The notes beneath the pieces are model-generated. The model saw only the letters and a list, made by a program, of their open reading frames with translations, was not told the DNA's origin and did not search any database. Below, in pieces: positions 16,296 through 56,600 of a stretch of DNA of 64,000 nucleotides. Position numbers and translations under genes: made by a program. The DNA comes from Eledone cirrhosa. Lineage: Eukaryota. The DNA lies in assembly GCA_964016885.1 (NCBI GenBank), contig OZ024743.1:194680001-194744000 (forward strand), given 5' to 3'. Within the stretch, counting starts at the first letter, position 1. Each line of letters starts with the position of its first letter.

Positions 16296-16844
16296 CACCA
16301 GAGTTGTGGAACCAACAAACCAACCGGAAATTTTAAAATTTATAATTAAGTTTATAATAAATTGGAGTGATAGCAACTGGTGCGTGTTTTTCTTATTGGC
16401 AACATGACCCTCCCAAAGTATAACGATATCGGTTTCAACACACGTTTTCAGATAAAGAATCTTGCTAAACAAATTCAGAAACGATACATATATTTGTGTG
16501 TATATATATATATATATACATATTTAACATAGCGTCTTGTAGGACGTCTACATATGTATATATATATATATATATATATATATATATATATATATATATA
16601 TATATATATATATATATATATATATATATATATATATATATATATATATATATATATATATATATATACATATATATATATATATATATACATATGTAGA
16701 CGTCCAACAAGACGCTATGTTAAATACAGCGCTGAATTAAAATTACGATTGAGTTTTCTATGTAAACACATCTTTTTATATTATACGTATATATACATAT
16801 ATCAATGATATTAATAAATTGAAAGTATATTTATAAAATCATAT

Positions 16845-16905
16845 TTATCTATTATATATATTTCAAGGTTACCAAAACTTTAATACGCACTCATCAGATA
16901 AAATA
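16845..16905 (-). ncRNA. Hammerhead ribozyme in a short repeat (family H)
   Basis: Reverse strand TATTTTAT-CTGATGA-GTGCGTA...TAACCTT-GAAA-TATATATA-ATAGATA; homologous to 31973-32037. Confidence 0.6.
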
Positions 16906-17185
16906 CAAAGTTTGTTTTATATATATATATCAAAACAGTGAGAAAGAGACGTTTATGAGGAAGAAAAATATTTTTTTTCCCTTTTTTTTGTCTCTCTCTC
17001 CACATTTTATTATTATATATATATATATATATATATACATATATATTATATATATATATATTATATATATATATATTGCTGGGCTTGTGCCAAAAGTAGA
17101 AACAATCATTATATATATATATATATATATATATATATATATATATATATATATATATATATATAATGATTGTTATATATATATA

Positions 17186-19558
17186 TATGTTTAATCCTAT
17201 CCATGCTATTCCATGATTTGTTCCTGTACAATAGACAAAGCCCTTTTATGTCCATTTCTATGAGCTCCTTATATTTTCCCATGGCTCCTTTGTACACTCT
17301 GATTCTGTCTCTTTGGTTGTAGACAGAGAACTGCATGCGGTTGTTGAATTGGTGCATCGCACATGCGGAACACACTCTTCCCCACTTTTACCAAGTCTGC
17401 TATCAGAATACAAAATTTTGTACTAGTAGAAATTGCTGAGTTTTTGAGTATAAGGTATTTGGAGGCCGTAGGTTTAGCATAATGTGAATGGAGAATTTAG
17501 GCCTTCTCGTTTATAGTGTTTGATACAGGTAGTCTATTGTTATGGTGTTTGGAAGGGTAGTCAATAGCTACTGTTATGTTCAGGTGTATGGAGTTAGCTA
17601 TCTGCTGGATGCTCTCCATTGTGTTATTTTCTAGTTCAGGTTTATTGGTACTCTCTTGTGGGGGTGTTCTTATTAATATATCGTATCGTCTACGTAACGA
17701 GAGTACATGACGTGAGCTATGGAGGTCTCTTCTAGGAGTTTTCTCACATATATATATATGTGTGTGTGTGTGCGTGCGTGTGTGTGTGTTCGTGTATATA
17801 TAAGCCCAGAGGCTACAATTAGACATAATATCTCGAGGCTCTCACTCTCTCTCTCTTTATATATATATATGTATATATATATATAATGTTTCAGAAGATC
17901 CCGTTAAGGGTGAAAGCAGCGATTCTTTGCTTAAATTTTAATCTGTTATTTAAATAAATATTTGCTCTACTGTTCTTATATATTTCATATATATTTATCC
18001 TTATCGAGCCCTCTTTGGATTTTAGTCTTCAAATTTATTATTATTACTCTCTCTCTCTCTCTCTCTCGCTCTCTCTCTCTCTATATATATATATATATTT
18101 ATATATATATATATACATACATATATATATATAAAATACGTAGTTTAGAAAGCCACAACAATGCAGATGGGAAATCTCGAGGTAGGAAGTGAATGATAGA
18201 TAGGAGAAATAGGAGAAAGTGAAAATTGAGAGAGACAAAGATGAAAACAAAACAAAGGTAGAAGGGTTACCGTAGTGGAGATTTAATCCCAATATTTCGG
18301 GCTCACGCCCATAAACGGGGGAAAGTTCCAAAAAGGGGGGGAACAGGCTAAGCCGGAGAAAGTTGTGATGTCGTTAAAACAGGAGTGCCGTTATGGGGAG
18401 GAAATTTAAATGAGGGAAAGAATGCGCGTGCGCGTGATAAGCTGTGGCAAAAGCTACTGACCAAATGGGTTAAATCAAGAGGGTGCGCTAGCGTGTGAAA
18501 GCCGTAAAATATGTGTGTGTAAATATATATGTGTGTGTAGCTGTGTGTGTATATGTGTAAGTGTGTATATGTGTGAGTGTGTGTGTGTGTGAAAGATAGT
18601 GGGCTGTAGAAGCTGGAAATCAAAGGGTGTGAAAGGTGGTAGGTTGTAAAACATGTGTGCGTGTATAAATATTGATGTGTGTGTGTATGCGTATGGGTAT
18701 ATATGTGTGTGTAACTCTGTGTGTATATGTGTAAGTGTGTATATGTGTGAGTGCGTGTGTGTGTGAAAGATAGTGGGCTGTAGAAGCTGGAAATCAAAGG
18801 GTGTGAAAGGTGGTAGGTTGTAAAAACATGTGTGCGTGTATAAATATTGATGTGTGTGTGTATGCGTATGGGTATATATGTGTGTGTAACTCTGTGTGTA
18901 TATGTGTAAGTGTGTATATGTGTGAGTGCGTGTGTGTGTGAAAGATAGTGGGCTGTAGAAATTGGAAATCAAAGGGTGTGAAAGGTGGTAGGTTGTAAAA
19001 ACATGTGTGCGTGTATAAATATAGATGTGTGTGTGTGTGCGTATGGGTATGCATATACGTGCGTGTGTGTGAAAATAGCAGGCCGTGAGGGCTGTGAAGG
19101 GTCACTATGGTTAAATTAGCCATGTCAGCTCATTTCTCTCAGCCCGGTTGTTAAGTGGGAGTCTGAGGTTCTTAATAACAAGTGCTTTCTTTATCCTTAA
19201 GGATGCGATGCTGAGTTCAGTCGCTAGGACTGTGACCAAGGGTCTACCCTGTGGGTTTCCGCATTTAAGGATGTGTTTACGGAAGGAAGATGCGTTGGTG
19301 TTGATATGTTCCTTGATACGAACATGTAGGGGTCGGATGGTGCTACCTATGTAAAACTTGTTACATTTATCGCATTGAATCTTATATACGACATAGGTGC
19401 GTAGGCAATCTGTCCCCCGTATCGGGCAGTTGCTGAGGGAACACGTCCCATCTGACTCGTCGGGTTTGTTGGAGAGGCATCTTCGCAGCGAAGGTCCTGT
19501 GTGGGCCAAATGTATGTCAAGTCCCTCCGTCCGTATGGCCCTGCGGATGGCGTTCGTG
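17186..19558 (-). mobile_element. Inverted left arm of PLE A: GIY-YIG, 3' UTR and ~1 kb of downstream flank
   Basis: Reverse complement of 21653-23885. ORF 19111-19575 nearly duplicates the last ~148 aa of ORF 20175-22100. Starts at a (TA)n tract. Confidence 0.92.
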
Positions 19559-54641: not shown

Positions 54642-55336
54642 ATATTTCTGATATATTAATCAGATTTGTTTAGATGAAGTAATTCCTCTCATATTAAAAT
54701 TAAAATTCGGAAAAACATCTCTTATTTTACATATATCTCTGAGAATTGGGAATGGGTTTACAAGGTATTCATTCGCCCTAGTATTATAATACCTTTTTTG
54801 AAGATAGTCGTATTCCTTACTCTATATTTCAAAACATGTTTTATTCAATGGGAAATAAAACATTGTATTTGTAGTATCAGCATAAATGCAGCAATGTATA
54901 CAATTCATAACACAATACTCGGGCATTTATATCTCTAAAGCAAATTCATAATTCTAATTATTTTTCTGCAACAAAGTGCCTTATAATATCTAATGTATCG
55001 TTAGATAATATTATGTATTTTTCTCTTAAAGATAATTCGGGTAGCATATAAGAAATTATTGATTCCTCCACACCTCGAAACCCGAAACATGTTTACCATA
55101 TAACGGACAAATGTAATAATGCATATATGTTTATTGTATAGAAAAATCTGCTTTATAAAAGAAATACGCGCATAAGAATATATTTATTATTTCAAATATA
55201 TTTTGAACATTACTATTAATGTTATTTATTATAATAAACTTAAGGTGTTGGTAAAAGTGAGCAGTGTTGGTTGCTTCTCCCATTCAAAACGTACATGCTT
55301 TTTGAAACGTACATGCGTCTTGAAAGTGTGTTACAC

Positions 55337-55600
55337 TTCTTCTTCTTCTTCTTCTTCTTCTTCTTCTTCCCGAGAGTGTGTTGGGGGTGTGAGTGTTCAA
55401 ACACTCCTTCGAACGGGTCATGTCAGAAGCAACCGTCTCCAACTGATCCGGCTGGATATCCAAACGACACCAGGCCAGCTCATGGATGTTATCCAGCTAT
55501 CTTGCTCGGAGTCTATGCCTGGGTTTCCTGTCGGTTGGTTTTGCGCGTAAAATCTGTCCAGCAATTATTTCCTGAAACATTCTTCCACCCATTCCTGAGA
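55337..55600 (-). mobile_element. Second copy of the same LINE 3' fragment, opposite strand
   Basis: Its reverse complement resembles 54310-54500 and it ends in (TTC)n at 55337-55368. Confidence 0.65.
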
Positions 55601-56392
55601 CGTTCGTTGCAGCTGAGTGTTCAAATACTCCTTCCAGAATCGAAATAATAATACTTTAAGAATAAATAAAACTACTTATTAATCCTATAAGTAAATGACA
55701 ATTGTTTATATTGTAAAATGAATAATTCTGATAATAATTCTAAAGATTATATAAAATGCATATACTGATGGTGATATGTGAATATGTTGTGGTAAATATC
55801 CTTATACATATTTATTATGTGTGTAAACTCGCTTGATAGGTAAAACTGTTTTTGATTTTTGAATTTTGCAACAAAATATTAAATATATTTATTAATTGAA
55901 TTATGCTTCTGATAACTATATAAAATATTTTTATATTGTTTAATTTTGATATAATACATTAGTATAATTAACTCAAACGTAAACAAATACAAAAGATATA
56001 AAAAATTTCACGGAATTTAATTGGTCACTTCTGTTTGACTTAATATTTAAAAACGACGGTCATGCATCATCTCCCTCTCTTCTTTCTTTCTTTCATTCTT
56101 TCCTTATCGCGGTTACGTCTTCCCTCTTCTCTCTCTCCTTCTATCTTATCTTATTGTTTTTCTCCTTTTCTCTCTTCTCTTCTATGTATCTCTCTCTCTC
56201 TATCTCATTTTACATTTTTCATACTCACCCCCTCCTTGTACCTACATCTTGCTCCACATCCTCTTCTTCATCATATTTAAGTTTATCATGATATTATTTG
56301 TGTATATAAATATTGAGATTTGTTGTAATAAATCACTACCATGACTGGAATTGAACCATCAAGACAGTTGAGGTATGTCATACATCAATTCA

Positions 56393-56600
56393 TATATTTT
56401 ATCTGATGAGGCGTACAGAAAAAACAGCACAGTACCTCCGACATATATATAATAAAACAAATATTTTGATTATGTGAACGTATTCATTTATTAATATTTT
56501 GAATAATATTACTAACTCCAGAAAACTTCATTGTAGAGTGCTTTTAATCTATTGTAAAACTATATTCATTAATCAATGAATCATATTAATCGTTGGTTAT
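56393..56600 (+). mobile_element. Solo family H element with a hammerhead-like head
   Basis: TATTTTAT-CTGATGA-GGCGTAC...GTACCTCC-GACA-TATATATA-ATAAAACA, then a body homologous to 39030-39173, ending in (TA)n. Confidence 0.7.

What the first reader, a model, noticed from the sequence alone, without database searches (positions are those of the whole stretch)
16790..56600. Family H: short non-coding hammerhead elements with a covarying stem II (retrozyme-like PLE passengers)
Seen: six related copies at 16790-16920(-), 31960-32080(+), 36792-36900(-), 38731-38937(-), 38969-39173(+) and 56393-56600(+). They share TATTTTRT-CTGATGA-[stem II]-GAAA-TATRTATA-ATAAAAYA, with single core lesions in two copies. 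Stem II sequence varies while pairing is kept (TACCAA/TTGGT, ATACCAT/ATGGTAT, GAGGCGTAC/GTACCTC). All have their 3' end at or near a (TA)n tract, and two form a head-to-head hairpin with 3' ends outward, like the coding PLEs. Established: minimal type-I hammerheads with palindromic stem III occur in PLEs and non-LTR retrozymes. Inference: this is a non-autonomous ribozyme-defined family mobilised by PLE proteins.
Basis: partly seen in the sequence, partly recalled or inferred. Interest (0 to 1): 0.75.

Follow-up and report, generated by a model that had tools for sequence, protein, structure and literature searches.

The report
Hammerhead-bearing Penelope retrotransposon 3′ ends
Six short repeats carry a real-looking self-cutting RNA motif (a hammerhead ribozyme) and were pasted into TA microsatellites the way Penelope-type jumping genes are, so they are most likely ordinary broken-off tail ends of such elements rather than a new kind of element.

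Summary
The six copies exist at the stated places and are not chance. Each has type I hammerhead topology with a palindromic helix III. Three copies, not two, carry a core lesion; only B and E keep both core and stems. Proximal stem II has two-sided changes at 3 of 8 pairs: not significant by column shuffling (84/500), unlikely under simulated neutral decay (10/20,000). Fixed 3′ ends at (TA)n, ragged 5′ ends and a head-to-head pair are Penelope-like element (PLE) hallmarks, shared with coding PLEs in this window. No copy is tandem, so the retrozyme test fails. No ORF lies upstream, but that does not show non-autonomy: coding PLEs here keep the ribozyme 200-610 nt behind the stop, further back than any H copy demonstrably reaches. 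Verdict: 5′-truncated 3′ ends of a PLE-type family; coding source somewhat more likely than a short non-autonomous one. Known kind.

The parts
16803..16925 (-). Copy A (short-tail subfamily): hammerhead 16845-16905, core intact but stems I and II decayed; predicted cut after 16853; 50-nt tail; about 28 nt kept upstream of core
31901..32081 (+). Copy B (short-tail): best-preserved; TA runs on both sides; hammerhead 31973-32037, predicted cut after 32029; 52-nt tail
31953..32055 (+). Extended stem I of B: 12-bp helix 31953-31964 with 32044-32055 beyond an internal loop
   Evidence: (4 of 1000 shuffles as stable)
31936..31950 (+). Upstream segment of B holding GGTATGTC (31943); 31936-31946 is complementary (10 of 11) to stem II 3' strand plus core GAAA (32011-32021); also resembles a splice donor
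36791..36978 (-). Copy C (short-tail): hammerhead 36831-36895 with G5>U lesion; 10-bp stem II; extended stem I 36908-36919 with 36813-36824; GGTACGTC at 36933; 5' boundary uncertain
38734..38941 (-). Copy D (long-tail): left arm of head-to-head pair; A9>U lesion and a stem II mismatch; 154-nt tail; about 8 nt kept upstream of core
38942..38962 (.). TA-rich spacer at the inversion junction of D and E
38963..39173 (+). Copy E (long-tail): right arm; core intact; predicted cut after 39022; 151-nt tail with terminal hairpins; about 13 nt kept upstream of core
56334..56597 (+). Copy F (long-tail, solo): hammerhead 56395-56459 with A14>C lesion and G-C closing pair of stem II; extended stem I 56378-56388 with 56466-56477; GGTATGTC at 56372; 146-nt tail; 5' boundary uncertain
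15034..16197 (-). Comparator, not family H: decayed coding PLE 3' end (RT/GIY-YIG remnant, stop at 15276, minimal hammerhead at 15077)
23337..24735 (+). Comparator: related decayed coding PLE 3' end (stop at 24416, minimal hammerhead at 24689, TA run about 10 nt after the cut)
17186..22891 (+). Comparator: coding PLE (RT + GIY-YIG, 19456-22100) with inverted 5' copy; decayed minimal hammerhead at 22712, about 150 nt before its TA-abutting end

Best explanation
The six copies are 5'-truncated 3' ends (pseudo-LTR termini) of two related subfamilies of a Penelope-like retroelement whose protein-coding body is not present in this window. Mechanism: (1) a source element is transcribed through its 3' repeat, which holds a type I hammerhead (shown as sequence and structure; activity inferred); (2) the PLE protein nicks AT-rich DNA, here (TA)n, and starts reverse transcription at a fixed site 50 or 150 nt downstream of the ribozyme (fixed ends and TA targets shown; enzyme step inferred from Frangieh 2024); (3) the template must be uncut at this ribozyme, because every copy spans the cut site (shown); the 6-nt palindromic helix III cannot form in one molecule and needs a second hammerhead or protein help, which keeps a lone 3' ribozyme off (fold computed; dimer model from Cervera 2014); an upstream strand that pairs over stem II may add to this (weakly supported); (4) synthesis stops early, often within the paired stem I stalk, giving 120-270-nt copies and sometimes an inverted twin (shown). 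The ribozyme was selected in replicating source elements and decays neutrally in these dead copies (inferred).
For: All 6 copies include both sides of the cut site and end at subfamily-fixed 3' positions; 5 of 6 ends (4 of 5 independent insertions) abut TA runs against 0.003 per random position; 5' ends differ: about 8 (D), 13 (E), 28 (A), 80 (B) nt upstream of the core; D/E inverted pair like the coding PLEs at 17186-23886 and 26632-30708 and the short hammerhead hairpin 14313-14894. Coding PLEs in the window show ORF, 199-612 nt, hammerhead, 10-150-nt tail. Core conserved beyond neutral expectation (3 lesions in 72 cells against mean 14; P 0.0024) and stem II pattern P 0.0005 in the same simulation; 3 lesions match the 2.8 expected from D/E arm divergence (arithmetic). 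Cervera 2014 (PMC4209133) already reads dispersed single hammerheads and opposite-strand pairs 100-700 bp apart as truncated PLEs, and lists palindromic-helix-III variants with a stem II bulge in PLEs of flies, rotifers, shrimp and mosquitoes.
Against: No RT or GIY-YIG remnant upstream of any copy with 212 PLE-like proteins and two profiles, and no partial-tandem copy heading an ORF. The hammerhead differs from the minimal type in this window's coding PLEs: long stem I, no extra base between positions 9 and 10.1, A-U instead of G-C closing stem II in 4 of 6. B, C and F each show an ACTAYC motif 69-91 nt upstream of the core, where B starts, which would fit a defined short element (but C-F alignment there is not significant, 365/2000). 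Column-shuffle test of covariation not significant (84/500 pairs; score 33/500). Hammerhead segments do not fold better than shuffles in 5 of 6 copies (z -0.14 to 0.96; C -1.93).
Confidence: 0.55

Rival explanations
1. A short (about 180 and 270 nt) non-autonomous PLE derivative, the first reader's idea without the retrozyme part: same insertion chemistry, protein supplied in trans by coding PLEs.
For: No coding remnant upstream of 6 of 6 copies; B is bounded by TA runs on both sides at 181 nt; B and C share upstream sequence to B's 5' end (36 of 3640 control windows score as well); GGTAYGTC and ACTAYC recur at similar spacing in B, C, F; five insertions in 64 kb with none long; putatively non-autonomous Chlamys PLEs are described (Craig 2021, passage) and pLTR-derived non-autonomous elements are proposed (Li 2026 preprint).
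Against: Extreme truncation is normal here: other PLE-type ends in the window also survive as 100-600-nt hairpins. Spans kept are shorter than stop-to-ribozyme distances of local coding PLEs, so absence of an ORF is expected anyway. No internal promoter identified. F's upstream similarity to B or C is not significant (612 and 643 of 3640).
Confidence: 0.33
2. Dispersed monomers shed from a tandem non-LTR retrozyme array elsewhere in the genome, expressed as circular RNA.
For: Long stem I with internal loop is closer to canonical retrozyme hammerheads than to minimal PLE ones; constrained folds give a rod-like stalk; size 180-270 nt is in the 170-400-nt range (Cervera 2020); monomers are common in some families (Li 2026).
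Against: 0 of 6 copies tandem; tail and upstream profiles do not match each other, so no circular permutation is seen; whole-element folds are not more stable than shuffles (z +0.87 to -1.2), unlike the highly self-paired retrozyme RNAs; inverted pair and fixed TA-abutting ends are PLE traits.
Confidence: 0.07
3. A DNA-transposon-derived hairpin element (MITE) inserting at TA, with a coincidental or captured hammerhead-like motif.
For: D/E is a 440-nt palindrome between TA runs and the window has many palindromes.
Against: Four of 6 copies are single arms with one fixed and one ragged end; core and stems are conserved in one polarity; the same core pattern in 20 of 20 bacterial loci lacks the stems, so motif plus stems is not automatic.
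Confidence: 0.03

Closest known systems
Hammerheads in PLE pseudo-LTRs, palindromic-helix-III variant (Drosophila virilis Penelope, rotifer, shrimp, mosquito; Cervera and de la Pena 2014, PMC4209133)
   Same: Type I topology, palindromic helix III needing a dimer, long stem II with an internal defect, dispersed single copies and close opposite-strand pairs, high sequence variety.
   Different: Stem I is 8 bp plus a 10-12-bp extension (2-5 bp there); no extra base between 9 and 10.1; stem II closes A-U in 4 of 6; no ORF link shown here.
5'-truncated and inverted PLE insertions at (TA)n (Neptune, Hydra, Naiad; Craig et al. 2021, PMC8557442)
   Same: Fixed 3' end, heavy 5' truncation, inverted 5' copy, microsatellite target hiding any duplication.
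   Different: No pLTR-ORF tandem seen; clade cannot be assigned without protein; no 30-40-nt tail asymmetry between D and E.
Poseidon element of Anolis (PAc; Frangieh et al. 2024, PMC11167929)
   Same: Genomic copies end at fixed sites downstream of the hammerhead and come from uncut RNA; AT-rich target.
   Different: In PAc the ORF begins in stem II and the end lies inside the ORF; here the tail has no conserved frame.
Non-LTR retrozymes (Cervera and de la Pena 2020, PMC7229834; Li et al. 2026, bioRxiv 10.64898/2026.07.22.740005)
   Same: Non-coding, 170-400 nt, type I hammerhead, proposed PLE origin and PLE mobilisation.
   Different: Defined as head-to-tail repeats giving circular RNA; H copies are single or inverted, with no sign of circular permutation.

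Membership tests
Type I hammerhead ribozyme | Core CUGANGA ... GAAA ... UH | tested here: met
   Intact in A, B, E; one lesion each in C, D, F
Type I hammerhead ribozyme | Stem I open to 5' and 3' ends, stem II closed by a loop | tested here: met
   Stem I 89.6% and stem II 86.4% of cells paired; slid controls 34-53%
Type I hammerhead ribozyme | Covariation in the stems | tested here: inconclusive
   3 of 8 stem II pairs with two-sided change; shuffle 84/500; neutral simulation 10/20,000; only six copies, two from one event
Type I hammerhead ribozyme | Helix III, or a palindromic segment able to form it in a dimer | tested here: met
   8-nt strand has no hairpin but self-duplexes in 6 of 6 (-3.2 or -2.2 kcal/mol); AT palindromes are cheap in this genome
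Type I hammerhead ribozyme | G10.1-C11.1 closing pair | tested here: not met
   A-U in 4, G-U in 1, G-C in 1; predicts slower cleavage (recalled)
Type I hammerhead ribozyme | Match to an Rfam hammerhead model | tested here: not met
   Rfam models do not cover PLE variants well (recalled)
Type I hammerhead ribozyme | Loop 1 - loop 2 tertiary contact | not tested
   An internal loop in stem I exists but loop 2 is not conserved
Type I hammerhead ribozyme | Self-cleavage | not testable with these tools
   Needs in vitro transcription
PLE 3' end (pseudo-LTR) | Hammerhead near a fixed 3' end | tested here: met
   48-52 nt in A/B/C, 146-154 nt in D/E/F
PLE 3' end (pseudo-LTR) | Variable 5' truncation | tested here: met
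   About 8, 13, 28, 80 nt upstream in D, E, A, B; C and F uncertain
PLE 3' end (pseudo-LTR) | Inverted 5'-truncated copy adjacent at the 5' end | tested here: met
   D/E, 92% identical arms
PLE 3' end (pseudo-LTR) | (TA)n target | tested here: met
   5 of 6 ends; background 0.003
PLE 3' end (pseudo-LTR) | Linkage to an RT + GIY-YIG frame or partial tandem | tested here: inconclusive
   None upstream, but copies are too short to reach one; rest of genome not available
Minimal PLE hammerhead (min-HHR) | No helix III, short helix I, extra base between 9 and 10.1 | tested here: not met
   H has 6-nt palindromic loop, 8-bp-plus helix I, no extra base; the window's other PLE ends do fit
Non-LTR retrozyme | Head-to-tail repeats of 150-450 bp with a hammerhead in each unit | tested here: not met
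   0 of 6
Non-LTR retrozyme | No protein coding | tested here: met
   In the spans held
Non-LTR retrozyme | Highly self-paired monomer RNA | tested here: not met
   Linear copies fold no better than shuffles, z +0.87 to -1.2; true monomer unknown
Non-LTR retrozyme | Abundant linear and circular RNA | not testable with these tools
   No RNA data

The most novel reading that the evidence does not exclude
A dispersed, non-tandem, SINE-like non-autonomous PLE family of about 180 and 270 nt, built around a long-stemmed hammerhead with its own off-switch: an upstream GGTAYGTC strand that either pairs over stem II and the core (ribozyme off, RNA kept whole as reverse-transcription template) or is removed or engaged as a 5' splice site (with CTCCAG in the long tail as acceptor, placing the ribozyme inside a retained intron). 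It would be an intermediate between PLE ends and retrozymes and would offer a testable answer to why the 3' hammerhead of a PLE does not destroy its own template. Support is modest: pairing beats 8, 25, 15 of 1000 shuffles and 25, 43, 136 of 2000 genomic windows, each upstream strand pairs best with its own copy, and the off fold is favoured by 2-3 kcal/mol in B and F but disfavoured by 7 in C; the target was chosen after inspection.
Probability: 0.12. Interest if true: 0.62.

Novelty: new member of a known kind. Interest (0 to 1): 0.3.

Why it matters
As a PLE 3' end it adds one more family to a class already described in thousands of copies per animal genome, so it matters little beyond repeat annotation. 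Two details are worth keeping. First, the pattern of conservation (core and stems kept along source lineages, decaying in the inserted copies) argues that the hammerhead matters to the replicating element, a point still open: Craig 2021 calls its function unclear and Frangieh 2024 found cleavage dispensable in vitro. Second, the extended stem I and the upstream complementary strand give a simple deletion experiment on how a 3' hammerhead is kept silent in the template RNA. If the family proves non-autonomous and non-tandem it would fill the step between PLE ends and retrozymes proposed by Li 2026.

Tried and rejected
Rfam: no hammerhead family among the listed hits for the window or for copy B. 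Seventh copy at 36566-36625(-), which shares a 14-base core stretch: rejected, 13.8 bits, E 5.5. Five other descriptor hits (11088, 17884/23172, 27856/29514) have long non-palindromic helix III or lie antisense in PLE arms: treated as chance. Prokaryotic genomes: 20 exact pattern matches, none with stems I and II, best 30.1 bits, no (TA)6 runs: chance. Long upstream homology between C and F through a CT-rich tract to 37087 and 56054: looked significant against shuffles (2/300) but 10 of 664 genomic windows score as well: not counted. Circular permutation: tail and upstream profiles do not cross-match. Coding capacity in or upstream of the copies: none seen; a Pfam scan of those upstream frames was not obtained. 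Thermodynamic stability as evidence: not informative in this AT-rich RNA. Match to consensus sequences in the Craig 2021 supplement: one hit, inside unrelated AT-rich coding sequence, for four spellings of the core-helix III stretch. Literature on non-autonomous Penelope elements: four phrases gave 3 listed papers, none on ribozymes by title (listing only). Target-site duplications cannot be read inside TA runs.
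Full report
Setting. The window is AT-rich animal-type DNA full of microsatellites and retroelements: three PLE loci with RT and/or GIY-YIG domains, LINE-type remnants and a frequent 185-bp repeat. The host was not determined.

1. The observation. A structure descriptor allowing one core mismatch returned 11 hits, six of them the stated copies, all with a 6-nt helix III segment and 6-8 of 8 stem I pairs. 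I call them A (16.9 kb), B (32.0), C (36.9), D and E (38.9, 39.0) and F (56.4). The exact core pattern occurs three times and never in 100 shuffles. Profiles built from the six find nothing else. Three copies have a core lesion (C G5, D A9, F A14), not two; A has an intact core but broken stems; only B and E look competent. The copies form two subfamilies (79-87% and 77-92% within, 66-75% between) with 3' ends 48-52 and 146-154 nt after the predicted cut.

Covariation. On the six-row alignment 90% of 110 cells pair; 3 of 8 stem II pairs show a two-sided change, one copy each, around a conserved C-C mismatch. The tool's shuffle control is not significant (84/500 for pairs, 33/500 for score); slid controls pair 34-53%. 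A simulation of unconstrained evolution of six perfect pairs on the fitted tree gave three or more two-sided changes together with 91% pairing in 10 of 20,000 runs, and three or fewer core lesions in 0.24%; the pairs and the joint statistic were chosen after seeing the data. The hammerhead segments are not unusually stable.

2. (a) Stem I continues beyond an internal loop: 12 bp in B and C, about 10 bp of different sequence in F. Against shuffles this is 4, 20, 66 and 234 of 1000 for B, C, A, F, but cross-pairing follows subfamily: B and C upstream strands pair at about -11 kcal/mol with B and C downstream strands and -3 to -5 with D, E, F; F's pairs at about -10 with D, E, F and -3.6 to -7.8 with A, B, C. 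(b) GGTAYGTC lies 31-46 nt upstream of the core in the three copies long enough to hold it; the window has six such 8-mers in all. This segment is complementary to the 3' strand of stem II and, in B and F, to the core GAAA position (8, 25, 15 of 1000 shuffles; 25, 43, 136 of 2000 genomic windows), each pairing best with its own copy. Constrained folds favour this 'off' state by 2-3 kcal/mol in B and F and disfavour it by 7 in C. The same letters resemble a 5' splice site and D, E, F share CTCCAG in the tail; splice-site resemblance is from recalled consensus and was not tested. These are leads.

Boundaries. Five of six 3' ends abut alternating TA runs of 14-80 nt, A a decayed one; background 0.003. 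5' ends differ: about 8 nt upstream of the core in D, 13 in E, 28 in A, 80 in B, where a TA run begins. B-C similarity reaches B's 5' end (top 1% of control windows); F's similarity to B or C there, and C-F similarity further up, are not significant. D and E are one insertion: arms 92% identical joined by a TA-rich spacer. No copy is tandem and no tail matches an upstream part. No PLE protein remnant lies upstream of any copy (212 proteins by tblastn, two profiles).

Local comparators. Two decayed coding PLE ends show frame, 199 or 273 nt, minimal hammerhead, about 10 nt of tail (15276/15077 and 24416/24689). The near-complete PLE has a decayed minimal hammerhead 612 nt after its stop and about 150 nt before its TA end. 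The PLE at 26632-30708 has no convincing hammerhead in 1.15 kb. A non-coding hairpin at 14313-14894 carries a minimal hammerhead in each arm, the same anatomy as D/E from another family. So short hammerhead-bearing ends and hairpins are routine products here, and H copies are too short to be expected to reach a frame.

3. Mechanism. Shown: polarity, fixed 3' ends downstream of the ribozyme, ragged 5' ends, inversion, TA targets, copies spanning the cut site. Inferred: PLE endonuclease nick in (TA)n, internal initiation of reverse transcription on uncut RNA, early termination. The helix III strand forms no hairpin but self-pairs in all six, so a lone ribozyme should be poor and a tandem pair active. 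Three lesions in 72 core cells equal the 2.8 expected from the 3.9% per-arm decay of D/E if copies are of similar age, so selection acted in source elements and not at these loci. A transcript through D/E would form a 200-bp hairpin and no ribozyme. I put 0.55 on coding PLE sources, 0.33 on a short non-autonomous derivative, 0.07 on retrozyme monomers, 0.03 on a MITE; PLE-type mobilisation as such about 0.9.

4. Comparison. Cervera 2014 (PMC4209133; seen: main text parts 1-2 of 4, supplement part 1 of 3) reports hammerheads in PLE repeats, mostly as dispersed single motifs 'probably related to truncated PLEs', opposite-strand pairs 100-700 bp apart, palindromic-helix-III variants, and low activity improved in dimers. 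Craig 2021 (PMC8557442; seen: passages, Introduction, Hydra section, one supplement search) gives 5' truncation, inverted copies, (TA)n targets, 5'-UTR introns in pLTRs and putatively non-autonomous Chlamys elements. Frangieh 2024 (PMC11167929; parts 1-2 of 4) shows internal initiation, AT-rich cleavage and uncut RNA as template. Cervera 2020 (PMC7229834; abstract, Results parts 1-2 of 3) and Li 2026 (bioRxiv 10.64898/2026.07.22.740005; parts 1-3 of 5, supplements closed) define non-LTR retrozymes as tandem repeats and derive them from PLE ends. H works like a PLE 3' end and meets four of five tested features, the ORF link being inconclusive; it fails the tandem test for retrozymes and the min-HHR shape test. 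Unseen figures and supplements of these papers may hold a closer hammerhead relative.

5. Novelty. New member of a known kind. I found no description of an upstream anti-ribozyme strand in PLE ends in eight searches (the phrase 'alternative conformation' had 0 occurrences in the six papers listed), which is a limited library. That feature is the only part with a claim to surprise and it is weakly supported.

6. Verdict. Observation real with corrections; interpretation half right. Interest 0.3; novel reading probability 0.12, interest 0.62 if true.

Noticed in passing
window 17186-23886: Near-complete coding PLE (N-terminal frame 19456-20313, RT + GIY-YIG 20124-22100) with an inverted 5' copy; the inverted arm also carries about 1 kb of the sequence that follows the element's TA-abutting 3' end (22891-23886), including a piece of another decayed PLE: a 3' transduction or nested template.
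   Followed up: partly
window 26632-30708: 5'-truncated PLE with a CX4CXXC linker before GIY-YIG (Neptune-like by motif, not tested by tree), inverted arms 97% identical, 1.15-kb 3' region without a convincing hammerhead.
   Followed up: partly
window 15034-16197(-) and 23337-24735(+): Two decayed, 66% identical PLE 3' ends, each with a minimal hammerhead about 10 nt from the end and covarying stem II.
   Followed up: partly
window 14313-14894: Non-coding head-to-head hairpin between TA runs with a minimal hammerhead in each arm (14592-, 14674+): a second family with D/E anatomy.
   Followed up: partly
window 30843-30964 and 32627-32749: Two related 120-nt perfect hairpins whose arms begin with what looks like the 3' half of a hammerhead; each sits beside a third short repeat (30780-30842, 32750-32810, 39220-39310).
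   Followed up: no
window 4773-5167, 7062-7285, 8080-8182, 12132-12231, 33574-34002, 36115-36292, 42741-42966, 45732-46367, 49387-49509, 60955-61206: About 185-bp SINE-like family, 12 or more copies, some as head-to-tail dimers; resembles mollusc or octopus SINE cores (recalled, not tested).
   Followed up: no
window 14890-15018, 16303-16515, 34617-34695, 37416-37674: Palindromic MITE-like family next to TA runs.
   Followed up: no
window 9219-9374, 14166-14266, 34877-35068, 39323-39455, 41894-41975: Further isolated palindromes of 80-190 nt, several with TA at centre or flanks.
   Followed up: no
window 49867-51953(+); 1-3047(-); 54290-54533 with 55336-55583: LINE-type RT with an in-frame stop; an endonuclease-bearing LINE remnant at the window start; two inverted LINE-like 3' ends ending in (GAA)n.
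   Followed up: no
window 36566-36625(-): Possible very decayed H-like hammerhead 270 nt downstream of copy C on the same strand; shares a 14-base core stretch but scores only 13.8 bits.
   Followed up: yes
window 38734-38760 and 32060-32081: The last 20 nt of the long and short tails resemble each other and can form small terminal hairpins, so the long tail may have arisen by duplicating the end signal.
   Followed up: no
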